From the NCBI RefSeq assembly GCF_006345805.1, contig NC_043000.1, forward strand, positions 40,052,001 through 40,116,000: a stretch of DNA of 64,000 nucleotides. The letters are read 5' to 3'. The notes under the pieces are model-generated. The model made no database searches, was not told the DNA's origin, and saw only the letters and a program-made list of their open reading frames with translations. How positions within the stretch are numbered: the stretch's first letter is position 1; each line of letters starts with the position of its first letter. Shown in pieces: positions 719-61,697 of the stretch. The DNA is from Octopus sinensis (taxonomy: Eukaryota). A program made the translations under genes and the position numbers.

Positions 719-940
719 TATTTCTTTACTGCCCACAAAGGCTACACACAGAGGGGACAAACAAGGACAGACAAACAGATTAAGACGATTATATCGACCC
801 CAGTATGTAACTGGTATTTGACCATGAAAGGATGAAAGGCAAAGTCGACCTCGGCGGAATTTGAACTCAGAACGTAACGGCAGACGAAATACCACTAAGC
901 ATTTCACCCGGCGTGCTAACGATTCTGCCAGCTAGCTGCC
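719..940 (-). mobile_element. SINE family B (tail type 1) inserted into a SINE family A fragment
   Basis: Reverse complement has the head ggcagctagctggcagaatcgttagcacgccggg, the central ccgaggtcgactttgcctttcatccttt and the tail tgtgggcagtaaagaaata. It is flanked by the duplicated aggcttctttcagtttct (701-718, 949-966). Confidence 0.85.
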
Positions 941-27404: not shown

Positions 27405-28706
27405 ATGGAGAAAACTGAGTATGGTGCTGTCATGAAGTACCTTCATTTGAAAGGCATGACTCCATCAGAAATCCATGAAGATATGGCAAGAACCTTAACA
27501 GACAATGCTCCTTCGTATGCAACAGTCAAATGCTGGGTAAATGAATTCAAGCGTGAGTGTGGTAAATGAATTCAAGGGAGAGTGTGGAAGATGATCCCAG
27601 ACCAGGGAGACTTCCAACTGCAATCACCAAGGACAACCCTGACCTTGCTCTTGGTATGATAATGCAAGATCGCCGAATATCATGTAGTCAAATAGCTGAG
27701 AGACTGGGCATCTCAAAAGAAATGCTGAAAGAGCATACAACATTGTAACAAAAGAACTTGGGTTCTCAAAGGTTTCTGCAAGGTGGGTCCCTCGCCTTTT
27801 AACTCCTGAACAGAAACGCACCAGATGCACTTTGTCCACGAGCAATCTGGAACTGTTTGAAGTTGATGAAGAGAATTTTCTAGTTTGTTTCATTACTATG
27901 GATGAAAGATGGGTTCATCTCTACCAGCCTGAAACCAAAGAACAATCAAAGCAGTGGAAGCACACATCTACTCCTACCTCAAAGAAGGCCAGGGTCATTC
28001 TTTAAGCTGGCAAGGTCATGGCGTCCGTTTTTGGGGATTCTCAAGGTGTCTTGCTGATCGATTACCTTGAAAAGGGTCACACCATGATAGGGTTGTATTA
28101 TTCTCAGCTACTGAAACACCACCGAGAATCAATCAAAGGAAAAAGGCCGAGAATGCTCACCAGAGGAGTCCTTTTTCATCACGACAATGCTCCAGTGCAC
28201 ACCTCAGTGGTTACCATGTCAACAATTCGTGATTGTGGACTTGTTCCTCACCCGCCTTATTCGCCAGGCTTAGCTCCCTCTGACTTTTATCTATTTCCAA
28301 AAATGAAAAAAGTCCAGGCTGGTCACCATTTTGCCAGTGACAATGACATCATAGACGCTGTAGGAAGTTTCTTGGAGTCTCGAACAAAAGAGTTCTACGC
28401 CGAGATATAGGCAGCAAGCTGGCAGAAACGTTAGCACGCCGGGCGAAATGCATGGCGTATTTCGTTTGCCGTTACGTTCTGAGTTCAAATTCCGCCGAGG
28501 TCGACTTTGCCTTTCATCCTTTCGGGGTCGATAAATAAAGTACCAGTTACACATTGGGGTCGATATAATCGACTTAATCCGTTTGTCTGTCTATGTTTGT
28601 CTCCTCTGTGTTTAGCCCCTTGTGGGTAGTAAAGAAACAAATATAGGCGCTTCAGCACCGCTGGAAAAAATGTTGAGCCATCGAGGGGGACTATGTTGAA
28701 AAATAA
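27405..28706 (+). pseudogene. Mariner transposase pseudogene
   Basis: MEKTEYGAVMKYL, WVPRLLT, TMDERWV, HHDNAPVH, HPPYSPGLAPSDFYLF and GDYVEK*; frameshifts, stops and a SINE insertion. Confidence 0.92.
28410..28640 (+). mobile_element. SINE family B (tail type 1), full length, inside the mariner ORF
   Basis: Complete head, central domain and tail; the transposase frame resumes after it (ALQHRWKKC). Confidence 0.9.
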
Positions 28707-36793: not shown

Positions 36794-37192
36794 GGGCGCA
36801 GGAGTGGCTGTGTGGTAAGTAGCTTGCTTACCAACCACATGGTTCCGGGTTCAGTCCCACTGCGTGGCACCTTGGGCAAGTGTCTTCTACTATAGCCTCG
36901 GGCCGACCAAAGCCTTGTGAGTGAATTTGCTAGATGGACATTGAAAGAAGCCCGTCGCATATATATATATATATATATATATGTGTGTATGTTTGTATGT
37001 CTGTGTTTGTCCCCCCAACATTGCTTGACAACCGAGGCTGGTGTGTTTACGTCCCCGTAACTTAGCGGTTCGGCAAGAGAGACCGATAGAATAAGTACTA
37101 GGCTTACAAAGAATAAGTCCTGGGGTCGATATGCTCGACTAAAGGCGGTGCTCCAGCATAGCCGCAGTCAAATGACAGAAACAAAGTAAAAC
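36794..37192 (+). mobile_element. SINE family A, best-preserved full-length copy
   Basis: A box tggctgtgtggt, B box ggttcagtccc, CORE-like ccttgggcaagtgtctt, internal (TA/TG)n, tail ggcggtgctccagcatagccgcagtcaaatgacagaaac. Confidence 0.9.
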
Positions 37193-40358: not shown

Positions 40359-41886
<1,528 letters not shown>

Positions 41887-42248
41887 GGCTTTTCTTCCCA
41901 CAGATAAACTTTACTTGCTTTCCCCTTTACACCATATATCATAACACTGATACACGATCCCTATTGATCGTTCCTTTTTTTTTTTCCTCTTCCCCTTTTT
42001 TCCCCTTTTTCTTCTTTTTTCATTTCTCTTTTGTTTTGTTCCTTTTCCCTTTCTTTTTTTTTCTTTTATTCTTTTTATTTCTTATTCTATTTTTTTTTCT
42101 TTCCATTTTTTTTTGTTCTTTTCTTCCCTTTTACGATCCCTCTTGATCGAAAACCTACACCACCCCCTTTTTTTCATCCCCCAAAAGAAAAGCTCTACCT
42201 TGTAACTTGTCCCATCTGTGTGCAGCCCTGTGTGGCCAATAAAGAAAC
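41887..42248 (+). mobile_element. Second Tx1-like copy, 3'UTR only
   Basis: Homologous to 41213-41483; followed again by (TCTA)n. Confidence 0.85.
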
Positions 42249-42266
42249 TTATCTATCTATCTATCT

Positions 42267-42308
<42 letters not shown>

Positions 42309-51671: not shown

Positions 51672-52251
51672 CAGGGGTTGGACAAAATAATGGAAACACC
51701 TAGCATCATAATTTTGAAATATCTATAAAACCATCAAACACTTGTTTATTTTTATGTCTTTTGATTTATTATTAGTGTTGCTTAATATGCTTTGCTAAAA
51801 TTGCTGTTTCTTTTCAGATATCAGAAAATGGTAATTAAAATTCATTAAAATCACAGATCTATCGGACTTTCAAAGAGGTCAAATTATTGGTGCTCATATG
51901 GCAGGTGCTAGCGTAACGAAAACAGCCGAAATGTTTGGTGTATCAAGAAGTACTGTCTCGAAAGTAATGACAGCCTTTGAGAAAGAGGGAAAAACCTCCT
52001 CGTCGAAACGAAACCCCGGAAGAAAACCAAAACTTTCAGTTAGGGATCGTCGGACTCTTACGCGAATTGTTAGAAAGGATCACAAAACTACAGCTCCCAA
52101 AATTACTGCAGAGCTTAATGATCACCTCGAGAACCCAATTTCCACAAAAACTGTTCGCCGGGAGTTGCACAAAGCCGGATTTCACGGGAGGGCTGCAATC
52201 AGAAAATCACTACTTTCAAAAACAAACGTTGCAAAGCGTTTAGAGTGGAGT
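51672..52251 (+). mobile_element. Tc1 transposon left half (TIR and paired-like DNA-binding domain), truncated before DDE
   Basis: TA|caggggttggacaaaataatggaaacacc; DLSDFQRGQIIG..GRKPKLS..TVRRELHKAG..RLEW. Confidence 0.88.
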
Positions 52252-52284
52252 ATCAAAATAAGCAATGGGATATCAAGAGGTGAT

Positions 52285-52368
52285 GCAGTACGACCGTTTC
52301 AAGCGGTTCCATTTAATTGAACAATGCAGTCATTACAGCAATTTAAATACAGAGCTATCCTCAGTTTC
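52285..52368 (-). ncRNA. Hammerhead-like motif with extended stem II, stem I decayed
   Basis: Minus strand CTGAGGA-tagc...gctt-GAAA-cggtcg-TA. Confidence 0.45.
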
Positions 52369-54480: not shown

Positions 54481-54861
54481 ATGTGTTCCTATTTTTCTCT
54501 GGGAATAAATTTAGAACTTTAAAGTTTGATTTTTTTTTAATGTTGGATAACCAAGAAAATCACCAGGGAAGTTTGAGTTTTGTGTAAGGATAGAATACAT
54601 GTGCTCTTGTATTACATGCTTTTACACTGACTCACTCGCAGACAGGTTAAATACATACTCATATAAAACGATGATATTAAATGTATAGGAAAAACCTATA
54701 CACGATAAAGATATACGTGTAGAAAATGTGAATCGTGTGTGAGTGTGTATCCGAACAGAAAAAAAGTCAGAATAAATACTGCAAAGCACTTTACTGACGC
54801 TCAAACGATTTTGAAAATCTATCGCCTTAACTTACTACTACAATACAAGATGTATGACACT

Positions 54862-55265
54862 TATTTCTTTATTGCCCACAAGGGGGCTACACACAGAGGA
54901 GACAAAGGGATTAAGTCGATTATATCGACCCCAGTGCATAACTGGTACTTATTTAATCAACCCCCAAAGGATGAAAGGCAAAGTCGACCTCGGTGGAATT
55001 TGAACTTAGAACGTAACGGCAGACGAAATACCTATTTCTTTACTACCCACAAGGGGCTAAACACAGAGAGGACAAACAAGGACAGAAAAACGGATTAAGT
55101 CGATTATATCGACCCCAGTGCGTAACTGGTACTTATTTAATCGACCCCGAAAGGATGAAAAGCAAAGTCGACCTCGGCGGAATTCGAACTCAGAACGTAA
55201 CTGCAGACGAAATACGGCTAAGCATTATCGCCCCGCATGCTAACGTTTCTGCTAACTCGCCGCCT
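54862..55265 (-). mobile_element. Dimeric SINE B (two tail-1 units)
   Basis: Same junction as 7298-7667; flanked by agatgtatgacacttatt / agatgtattgcacttatt. Confidence 0.85.
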
Positions 55266-56447
55266 TAGATGTATTGCACTTATTATTTAAAATACCAACC
55301 TTGTCACACAGTGTATCAGGCCGATTATGTCGATTGTATTAAAGCTAAAAGTGTGTGGACTATAGTATAGGGTATACTGTACTTGCAACTTGAAGGGCTA
55401 GTCTTGTTCCATAGTGTCAACTCGAGCCAACGTGGCTAGATCGAAGGGACGGGAAAAGGCCGGACAGTATGACAAATTTCCCGTTCCGTGGCGGTAGGTC
55501 CCAATCTCACAACCAAATATACGAACTGAGTATTCTGTGGCCTTGCTCCAAGTCAACCGTAAGTGAGCAGACCTATGATCAAAAGTGTTCCAGACATGAC
55601 CGATCTATTTTTTTTATATATATATACATAAGCTTACATTGTTGAAAGCGTTTTCCGTCTTTTTTGTTTTTAAGACGGTGGTGTATTTGGCGGCTATTTG
55701 CGACTATAAGCTTCCTTGTTGGCTTTAACAAGAAATGGGTTGAGGCAGAAAATAAAGAAAAGTGAAAGCCAGAGTTGTTAAGCAGAAGTAGTTTAATTCT
55801 AGTTCAGCCCTTATCTAACAAACGTGCTTCTGCTAAGAACAGTGTGTCTATTTTTTCAGACATAGCATGTCCACCTCTGTTCCATCGTACGTGATTTCAC
55901 TCTTTATAGGAATTACGAAGTGATTTCAGGGAAATATGGTCGCTATTAGCCGTAGAACGGGTAATCACGTAGAATGACGTCGTCAGCTATTATTTGTTAT
56001 ATTTTATTGAATGTCGTATCAAATAATTTCACCTACCAAATCACTCCACCACTACCACTCTCTTTCTCTCTCCCACACACATATAGTTTCCCTGTCTTAC
56101 TCTCTTTTTCTCTCTCCTATCTATTTATCTATGTGTGTGTGTGTAGGAGGGACGGTGTGCGCGCGCGTGTATGTTTCACACACACTCTCTCTCTCCTTCA
56201 CTCTTTCACTCATTCTTTCTATCTTTATTTTTCTCTCTTTCTCTTTCACTTTAATATTCTCTTGCCTCACTCTACACTTCTTCCCCACTTTCCTCCCTCT
56301 CTCGCATACCCTCTTTCTCTTCCTCAATTTACCACCACTATCTCTTTTCCATTAACTTTGCCCCTCTATTGCACCCCCCCACTACTTGTCACCCACTTGA
56401 TATTTATCTCATTTCCTTTCAGTCTGTTCTCTTAGATATATGTATAT

Positions 56448-56675
56448 ATCTTTACTACCCACAAGGGGCTAAACACAGAGGGGACAAACAAGGACAGACA
56501 AAGGGATTAAGTCGACAACATCGACCCCAGTGCGTAACTGGTACTTAATTTATCGACCCCGAAAGGATGAAAGGCAAAGTTGACCTCGGCGGAATTTGAA
56601 CTCGGAACGTAACGACAGACGAAATACGGCTACGAATTTCGCCCGGCGTGCTAACGTTTCTACCAGCTCGCCGCC
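56448..56675 (-). mobile_element. SINE family B (tail type 1), full length
   Basis: Complete reverse-complement copy of 28410-28640. Confidence 0.9.
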
Positions 56676-56730
56676 TTTGATATATGGTCTTCCTTCGTCT
56701 CTCTCTCTGTCTCTCTGTCTCTCCCTCTCC

Positions 56731-56791
<61 letters not shown>

Positions 56792-57437
56792 TCTATCAGA
56801 CTTCCACATTCTGTCTTCGATTTGACTCGCTAGAAATTTTTCTTCTCTTCCTAACTTATTGCACATAGTGTATGCGCGTTCTTCCTCTCTCTCTCTCTCT
56901 CTCTCTCTCTTCTTCTTCTTTCTTCTTCTTCTTCTTCTTCTTCTTCTTCTTCTTCTCCTTCTTCTTCTTTGTGTGTGTGTGTGTGTGTGCGTGTGTCTAT
57001 ATATTCTTTTATTCTTTTATATATTTCTTCCTTGAGACTGCGGCCATGCTAGGGCACCGCCAATGTATGTATGTATGTATGTATGTATGTATGTATGTAT
57101 GTATGTATGTATGTATGTATACACACAACTCTATGCAACAAGTTAGTAAGAAAAATAAATCGTAAATTTCTAGGAAACCGATTAGACTATAAGGGTTCGA
57201 TCCCTGGCAGAAAACAATTGATGTTTATATTGATTTTTCGTCTGAGCCTATCTTCAGAATCAATAAACTAAGCCAATAATATTCTGCGATCGATTATTCC
57301 GTCTATCCTACTAAAAGCGATCTTTAGCCTTACGAAAAAGAAAAAAAAATCAATAACTTTGGATACGAAGAAACTCTCGGGAAATTCTTGTCTGACTGCC
57401 TATACACACGCTCAGGCTCATACATCTGTCACTCAAT

Positions 57438-61262: not shown

Positions 61263-61697
61263 CAGAAACGTTAGCACGCCGGGCGAAATGCTCAGCGGTA
61301 TTTCGTCTGTCGATACGTTCTGATTTCAAAATCCGCCGAGGTCGACTTTGCCTTTCATCCTTTCGGGGTCGATTAAATAAGTACCAGTTACGCACTGGGG
61401 TCGATATAATCGATTTAATCCTTTTGTCTGTCCTTGTTTGTCCCCTCTGTGTGTAGCTCCTTGTGGGCAGTAAAGAAAAAAGAAACGTTAGCACGCCGGG
61501 CGAAATGCGTAGCCGTATTTCGTCTGTCTTTACGTTCTGAGTTCAAATTCCGCCGAGGTCGACTTTGCCTTTCATCTCTTCGGGCTCGATTAAATAAGTA
61601 CCAGTTGCGCACTGGGGTCGATATAATCGATTTAATCTTTTTGTCTGTCCTTGTTTGTCCCTTCTGTGTGTAGCCTCTTGTGGGTAGTAAAGAAATA
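61263..61697 (+). mobile_element. Head-to-tail SINE B dimer
   Basis: Two units of about 220 bp, both starting agaaacgttagcacgccggg. Confidence 0.88.

What the first reader, a model, noticed from the sequence alone, without database searches (positions are those of the whole stretch)
42195..42248. SINE B tail type 1 appears to be a Tx1/L1-clade 3' end
Seen: the Tx1 end ccttgtaacttgtcccatctgtgtgcagccctgtgtggccaataaagaaa aligns with the SINE end ccttgt---ttgtcccctctgtgtgtagccccttgtgggcaataaagaaa (composite of the copies at 61430-61478 and 54862-54897), and both stop at the same point. Established: SINE tails usually come from CR1/L2/RTE partners, while mammalian L1 recognizes only poly(A). Inference: an abundant young SINE swapped its older tail for a Tx1 tail and uses stringent Tx1 machinery, yet is not confined to (TCTA)n. 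I rate this the best candidate for a new system here.
Basis: partly seen in the sequence, partly recalled or inferred. Interest (0 to 1): 0.75.

Follow-up and report, generated by a model that had tools for sequence, protein, structure and literature searches.

The report
Octopus SINE shares Tx1-clade tail
A very abundant short jumping repeat (SINE) in this genome, likely an octopus's, ends in the same 45-57-base tail as a whole group of Tx1-like retrotransposons, and it likely borrows the copying enzyme of a dispersed sister family rather than that of the microsatellite-bound copy in this window.

Summary
The match is real: the LINE end at 42191-42247 aligns with all 8 tail-1 SINE units in the window (76-83%; 0/1000 shuffles reach the score), and the ends coincide. 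The LINE is a young 5.1-kb APE+RT element on the Tx1 side of the L1 clade, flanked by (TCTA)n. It is not the best partner. The tail is shared across a clade. An ORF1-only family matches the SINE tail best (82% over 57 nt, against 69%). A dispersed RT-bearing sister family matches the last 28 nt best (85% against 77%) and ends in the same letters. RTE-like and R4-like ends sampled do not match. A small predicted hairpin covaries across families but folds weakly. SINE targets begin with letters tied to the tail variant, which suggests RNA-end priming and would explain the freedom from (TCTA)n. A tail swap away from a non-Tx1 partner is unproven, because the older tails carry the same loop. Mobilization in trans is inferred, not shown. 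The scan found this before on other DNA of this genome.

The parts
42191..42247 (+). Shared 3' tail of the Tx1-like LINE (family A), ending AATAAAGAAA
42215..42245 (+). Predicted tail hairpin (upper stem GCC/GGC around loop CTGTGT, weak lower stem); prediction only
42248..42267 (+). Family-A 3' tag CTTA followed by short (TCTA)n
41888..42251 (+). 5'-truncated, 3'-UTR-only copy of LINE family A
40547..41487 (+). Second 5'-truncated family-A copy: ORF2 C-terminus (zf-RVT, frameshifted near its end) plus 3' UTR and tail (GGCT variant)
40359..40548 (+). (TCTA)n array upstream of the LINE copies
41485..41886 (+). (TCTA)n array between the two LINE copies
61264..61695 (+). SINE B tail-1 dimer (units end 61478 and 61695), joined at the AGAAACG site of the head
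54864..55264 (-).
56447..56675 (-). SINE B tail-1 copy, 12-bp duplication
28410..28637 (+). SINE B tail-1 copy
721..940 (-). SINE B tail-1 copy, 22-bp duplication starting AGAAA
7296..7666 (-). Tail-1 unit followed by a tail-2 unit inside one 16-bp duplication

Best explanation
The SINE's tail 1 is the 3' end shared by a clade of octopod Tx1-like LINEs and their ORF1-only derivatives, and the SINE likely spreads by using the reverse transcriptase of a dispersed sister family (D-like) rather than the (TCTA)n-bound family in this window. Shown: the homology, its spread across the clade, the better-matching families, and target duplications of 12-23 bp. Inferred: (1) the tail was likely captured from an ORF1-only element of type E or an unsampled relative, and its last 28 nt are D-like; (2) ORF2p likely recognises a small predicted hairpin with a CUUGU loop plus AAUAAAGAAA; (3) a few read-through bases behind the tail likely pair with the nicked DNA, so each family lands on sites that begin with its own tag (TCTA for A, GA(G) for E, GGTA, AGAA or TATA for SINE variants). 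Step 3 would explain why the SINE ignores (TCTA)n and stacks at two sites in its own head.
For: Homology beyond chance. LINE identity: APE, RT and zf-RVT in one frame; 265 bits to a protein labelled YTX2 against 147 to human L1 ORF2p and 54 to R2. The RT pieces of A, B and D group with an Argonauta protein at 100/99. Mean identity to SINE tails over 57 nt: E 0.82, C 0.72, D 0.71, A 0.69, B 0.68; SINE-SINE 0.90; shuffles 0.46-0.48. Over the last 28 nt: D 0.85, E 0.82, A 0.77. D has ORF2 similarity directly upstream of the tail in 22 of 30 loci, varied flanks (2 of 30 in a SINE head), and ends AAAGAAAT like the SINE. E shows no ORF2 similarity upstream in 30 of 30 loci (most are 5'-truncated) and ORF1 similarity in 4. 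Hairpin: 94.9% of cells paired, 0/500 shuffles as high, 3 pairs with two-sided changes; the third pair is C-G in SINE, C and D and G-C in A, B and E. Tags: after the tail, the TAG variant reads GG in 12/30 and AGA in 1/30, and the CAA variant reads AGA in 13/30 and GG in 1/30 (p 0.001 and 0.0004). In the upstream, pre-existing copy of the duplication, GG begins 6/18 T-variant and 0/11 C-variant targets (p 0.058), and AGA begins 0/18 and 4/11 (p 0.014), against backgrounds of 3.4% and 2.0%. For E, G stands at +2 in 13 of 16 targets (read by eye). Tag letters appear downstream without being in the target at L149, L390, L253 and L254. Within-family identity: SINE 0.90, young D 0.93, E 0.94, nearest A 1.00.
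Against: No assay: shared tails do not prove mobilization in trans. No single RT-bearing family matches the whole 57 nt. A pattern joining LINE-type upstream letters to the SINE's TTTAG found 1 match in the genome, which I did not inspect separately. Duplication length does not discriminate: tail-2 and tail-3 SINEs have 12-18 bp (n = 5 and 4). The hairpin is weak: RNAalifold gives -0.09 kcal/mol and single folds give z from -1.4 to +1.7; the counted structure was read from these same sequences, and MAFFT put family A one base out of register. Without array junctions the GG link drops to 3/21 against 0/26, p 0.08. TAT-starting targets are common in both variants (7/18 and 3/11). The LINE age sets were the top hits to each query, so their identities are biased upward, and older A-like subfamilies exist (L085, L118, L306).
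Confidence: 0.62

Rival explanations
1. One reading: the TCTA-flanked family A donated the tail and drives the SINE.
For: A is abundant (6,413 exact tail matches) and recently active. Its TCT-to-GCC spacing equals the SINE's, whereas D and C are one base shorter. Older A-like subfamilies exist.
Against: A ranks fourth of five over 57 nt and third over the last 28. Its loop is 6 nt and its third stem pair is G-C where the SINE has C-G. It ends CT or CA where the SINE ends TA. 0 of 29 SINE targets begin with a TCTA unit.
Confidence: 0.1
2. The tail is Tx1-clade, but target choice comes from the endonucleases of several LINE subfamilies, each mobilizing one SINE variant, and not from RNA-DNA pairing.
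For: Kojima 2015 states that target choice is mainly set by the endonuclease and infers different Tx1-Mar partners for different SINEU families (PMC4494074). The variant-target link is equally expected if the variants were active at different times.
Against: Tag letters are carried into junctions where the target lacks them. The tags equal the sequence that follows the tail in arrays (22 of 56 tails are followed by one of two head sites).
Confidence: 0.2
3. The tail is a captured passenger, and the SINE is copied by a relaxed or unrelated RT (for example the abundant RTE-like or R4-like LINEs).
For: All three SINE tails give duplications of similar length. RTE-like and R4-like LINEs are common in the unselected sample. 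The hairpin is thermodynamically marginal.
Against: The SINE ends at the same base as the LINE tail and lacks the (GAT)n and (AAT)n ends of those LINEs. Stem pairing is kept in 50-56 of 56 SINE copies at each of four pairs.
Confidence: 0.08

Closest known systems
SINEU and Tx1-Mar of crocodilians (Kojima 2015, PMC4494074; passages and section 16 read)
   Same: A SINE likely mobilized in trans by Tx1-clade LINEs, with a shared target preference; Tx1 relatives (Kibi, Koshi and others) sit in microsatellites as family A does.
   Different: SINEU has snRNA heads and a poly(A) tail, and the paper found no LINE similar to the 3' half of SINEU-1. Here a structured tail is shared in sequence, there is no poly(A), and the SINE exceeds 50,000 exact tail matches.
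ZmSINE2/3 with LINE1-1_ZM, and SINEX-3_CR with L1-1_CR (Ohshima 2013, PMC3747384; passages and part 1 of 2 of the tables section read)
   Same: tRNA SINEs with an L1-clade tail of about 45-80 nt that forms a hairpin with compensatory changes; stringent recognition proposed.
   Different: Plants and algae, and not Tx1. That review counts only 3 SINEs with L1-clade tails, and its Table 1 names no Tx1 partner.
HAL1 (half-L1) (Kojima 2018, PMC5753468; passages)
   Same: ORF1-only non-autonomous derivatives, like families C and E.
   Different: HAL1 is described there for mammalian L1. Here the ORF1-only element shares a specific tail and is the closest match to a SINE tail.
Bivalve HCD SINEs with several LINE partners (Martelossi 2024, PMC11481361; passages and section 13)
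   Same: Mollusc SINE bodies with exchangeable LINE tails of 35-61 bp at 72-95% identity, and tandem arrays.
   Different: Partners are CR1, CR1-Zenon, L2 and Nimb; 'Tx1' does not occur in the main text.
3'-end annealing in R2Ol and L1 priming (PMC6530143 and PMC3649969; passages)
   Same: Pairing of the RNA's last bases with the nicked target aids priming.
   Different: Shown for one fixed rDNA site or for poly(A) on T-tracts, not as heritable tags that differ between subfamilies.

Membership tests
Tx1 clade (family A LINE) | APE endonuclease, RT and C-terminal zinc motif in ORF2, behind an ORF1 | tested here: met
   Pfam Exo_endo_phos, RVT_1 and zf-RVT on P0002. An upstream 365-aa frame with a Cys/His cluster has no Pfam hit.
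Tx1 clade (family A LINE) | RT closer to Tx1 than to L1 or other clades | tested here: inconclusive
   265 bits to a database protein labelled YTX2 against 147 to human L1 and 54 to R2. The tree had no L1 outgroup and no curated Tx1 reference. That YTX2 names the Xenopus Tx1 ORF2 is recalled.
Tx1 clade (family A LINE) | Target preference for a repeated sequence | tested here: met
   42 of 60 ends are followed by 4 or more TCTA-type units, and most of the other 18 begin with a shorter or imperfect run. Upstream arrays are present at most of the long copies.
tRNA-derived SINE (SINE2) | tRNA-like head with A and B boxes | tested here: inconclusive
   No Rfam match at E <= 1 in 54800-56800. Box-like motifs were seen by eye, with the consensus recalled.
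tRNA-derived SINE (SINE2) | Short, non-coding, high copy, with target duplications | tested here: met
   About 230 nt; 56 units per Mb; 43,357 and 9,974 exact matches to two tail variants; duplications of 12-23 bp in 29 copies.
Stringent SINE/LINE pair | Shared 3' sequence ending at the same point | tested here: met
Stringent SINE/LINE pair | Conserved stem-loop in the tail | tested here: inconclusive
   Covariation supports it; folding energy does not.
Stringent SINE/LINE pair | Tail-dependent mobilization in trans | not testable with these tools
   Needs a retrotransposition assay.
Stringent SINE/LINE pair | Overlapping activity periods | tested here: inconclusive
   SINE 0.90, D 0.88-0.93, E 0.94, A 0.95-1.00 pairwise; LINE sets biased toward the queries.
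HAL1-like ORF1-only element (families C, E) | ORF1 followed by the 3' end with no ORF2 | tested here: met
   E: ORF1 similarity upstream in 4 of 30 loci and ORF2 similarity upstream in none. C: ORF1 frames in L152, L154, L163, L169 and L176 with no ORF2 before the tail.

The most novel reading that the evidence does not exclude
An animal Tx1-like clade uses one portable 3' hairpin as its recognition signal and lets the few RNA bases behind it choose the landing site. A SINE that took this tail from an ORF1-only parasite thereby inherits RNA-steered targeting that differs by subfamily, which turns its own head into a target and builds arrays. Even the LINE's (TCTA)n specificity would be RNA-set, not endonuclease-set, and the older SINE tails may be earlier captures of the same loop.
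Probability: 0.3. Interest if true: 0.75.

Novelty: new variant of a known kind. Interest (0 to 1): 0.5.

Why it matters
Sequence-shared tails between SINEs and L1-clade LINEs are rare in print (3 cases, in plants and algae), and the one Tx1-SINE partnership I found described has no shared tail. An animal example with tens of thousands of copies makes Ohshima's proposal that stringent 3' recognition is ancestral in the L1 clade testable in animals. If the tags steer insertion, one RT clade with several natural specificities is a ready system for separating endonuclease-set from RNA-set targeting.

Tried and rejected
Chance or a poly(A)-signal artefact: rejected by shuffles, with and without the last 10 nt. 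A non-Tx1 donor: the RTE-like end and two R4/Dong-like ends found near RT hits in 1 Mb are unrelated, and tail hits beside them were neighbouring SINE insertions (clade labels recalled from motif appearance; a CR1-like copy gave no defined end). A LINE that homes into the SINE head, a lead from earlier notes: 27 of 28 matches to my junction pattern were SINEs or SINE-derived and 1 was a D element, and only 2 of 30 D copies sit there, so I could not confirm a site-specific homing family. A donor for tails 2 and 3: no LINE carrier among the profile hits in 1.9 Mb. Duplication length as a partner marker: not discriminating. ESM Atlas gave no result. Cluster members carried no names. Rfam did not identify the head. 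Literature searches; none listed a paper whose title or abstract start reports an octopus SINE with a Tx1 tail. Repbase, Dfam, SINEBase, subscription papers (such as Ohshima and Okada 1994 on octopus SINEs) and the supplements of PMC13282606 and PMC5786205 were not seen and may hold this pair.

Full report
Setting. The window lies in a 2.72-Gb genome. The closest named homologue of the LINE's RT is from Argonauta (65%), so the host is likely an octopod (inference).

The observation. The stretch 42191-42247 is the end of a 5'-truncated element between (TCTA)n arrays, and a second copy ends at 41482. It aligns with all 8 tail-1 SINE units in the window at 76-83% over 42-50 nt. Against 4 real SINE copies, 0 of 1000 shuffles reach the score, also when the last 10 nt are removed.

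The LINE (family A). A genome search returned 40 matches at 99-100% from 592 candidates, and a 29-nt tail pattern has 6,413 exact matches with 0 in the control. Long copies measure about 5.1-5.2 kb and encode APE, RT and zf-RVT domains. The protein scores 147 bits against human L1 ORF2p and 54 against R2, and 265 against a protein labelled YTX2. This places it on the Tx1 side of the L1 clade, though no curated reference was available. Of 60 ends, 42 are followed by four or more TCTA-type units.

The tail is clade-wide. A profile built from SINE tails alone led to four more carriers. B is an older RT-bearing family (86 candidates). C is a diverse ORF1-only group (208 candidates). D is RT-bearing and dispersed (1,118 candidates; ORF2 similarity upstream in 22 of 30 loci; 2 of 30 in a SINE head). 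E is ORF1-only (1,446 candidates; no ORF2 similarity upstream in 30 of 30 mostly truncated loci; ORF1 in 4). RT pieces of A, B and D form one group with the Argonauta protein at 100/99. Two rows that I labelled tail carriers in that tree were not shown to carry the tail: L080's upstream copy lacks it, and the tail of the L178 piece was not checked. The tree is midpoint-rooted only.

Which family is closest. Mean identity to unselected SINE tails over 57 nt is E 0.82, C 0.72, D 0.71, A 0.69 and B 0.68, with SINE-SINE 0.90 and shuffles 0.46-0.48. Over the 5' half it is E 0.81 against A 0.61. Over the last 28 nt it is D 0.85, E 0.82 and A 0.77 (up to 25 copies per family against 40 of the 56 SINE tails). 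D, like the SINE, continues with T, mostly TA, after AAAGAAA, while A continues with CT or CA. No RT-bearing family matched the whole tail, so the tail is either a mosaic of E-like and D-like parts or comes from a family I did not sample. The RTE-like and R4-like ends found in the unselected 1 Mb are unrelated.

Structure. A hairpin with a CTTGT loop is compatible with all families. On 27 natural copies, 94.9% of cells pair, 0 of 500 shuffles reach this, and 3 pairs change on both sides. The third pair is C-G in the SINE, C and D and G-C in A, B and E, and the SINE's A-to-G change keeps a U-G pair. Against this, the consensus energy is about zero, single folds are not better than shuffles, and I read the structure from these same sequences. 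The two older SINE tails also contain GGC-CTTGT-GCC (34 of 44 and 24 of 28 copies matched a pattern that included the stems, so those pair counts are biased).

Why the SINE is not in (TCTA)n. Only 1 of 56 tails lies next to such a tract, while 22 of 56 run into one of two sites in the SINE head. Among 60 copies chosen only by exact tail, the TAG variant is followed by GG in 12 of 30 and the CAA variant by AGA in 13 of 30, with 1 of 30 each the other way. Without array junctions the counts are 3/21 against 0/26 (p 0.08) and 1/21 against 10/26 (p 0.013). In 29 copies with a readable duplication (12-23 bp, median 15), the pre-existing upstream copy begins GG in 6 of 18 T-variant and 0 of 11 C-variant cases, and AGA in 0 of 18 and 4 of 11. 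I dropped loci L194-L221 (picked by a junction pattern), low-complexity duplications and 5 rows with an unclear anchor or an internal match. E copies carry a CCGAG-like tag, have duplications of 13-24 bp in 16 of 28 (one more was a tandem copy), and have G at the matching place in 13 of 16 targets. In several junctions the tag is present although the target lacks it. I infer that read-through bases on the RNA prime reverse transcription at matching nicks. Pairing of this kind is shown for R2Ol and L1. Different endonucleases remain a live rival. Duplication length does not separate tail types.

Age. Pairwise identity is 0.90 for the SINE, 0.93 for young D, 0.94 for E, and 0.95-1.00 for A. The LINE sets were top hits and are biased upward, so this only weakly favours D and E.

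Literature. SINEU is likely moved by Tx1-Mar but shares no tail. Three SINEs with L1-clade tails are known from plants and algae. Bivalve SINEs use CR1, CR1-Zenon, L2 and Nimb. The 2026 Octopus vulgaris annotation lists 13 recently active L1-Tx1 families and has no occurrence of 'tail' or 'partner' (part 1 of 3 read plus a term search). Kojima 2018 on SINE bodies has no occurrence of 'Tx1' or 'octopus' (passages). Matetovici 2016 was seen as passages. Repbase and supplements were not seen.

Earlier notes of this scan reported the shared tail, a sister-family partner, self-targeting and RNA tags on other DNA of this genome. They gave me the leads to test head insertion and tags. My counts agree on the tail and the tags, and I did not reproduce a strictly homing LINE.

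Verdict. The feature is real, a new variant of the known SINE/LINE tail partnership, and the window's LINE is a relative of the likely partner rather than the partner. Interest 0.5.

Noticed in passing
L121-L150 (family B 3' flanks): Most family-B ends are followed by the same AAATTTCTT.CCGAACAACCAC-like sequence, and some family-C ends by a similar one; it may be a longer tag or a fixed target in another repeat.
   Followed up: no
L080:1066-4730: An 82%-identical sister of family A sits upstream of an A copy in the same (TCTA)n array; this copy ends without the hairpin tail.
   Followed up: partly
L220:1-1525: Internally deleted D element (ORF1, start of ORF2, then the C-terminal region and tail) whose 3' end abuts the AGAAACG site of a SINE head.
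   Followed up: partly
L031:3340-5142 (-): A 601-aa open frame with no Pfam hit that looks like a Penelope-type RT by recalled motifs.
   Followed up: no
L261:811-1366 (-): Four-unit SINE array in which each unit includes 21 nt of flank, suggesting duplication at the DNA level.
   Followed up: no
window 51835-52320 (-): A 161-aa frame that resembles a Tc1/mariner transposase N-terminus by recalled motifs; not scanned.
   Followed up: no
window 36797-37170: A second abundant SINE has a GTCTGTGTTTGTCCCC stretch weakly similar to the 5' half of tail 1 (9-11 bits).
   Followed up: partly
L163, L176, L181, L187, L189: ORF1-only and RT-bearing elements are often stacked head to tail.
   Followed up: no
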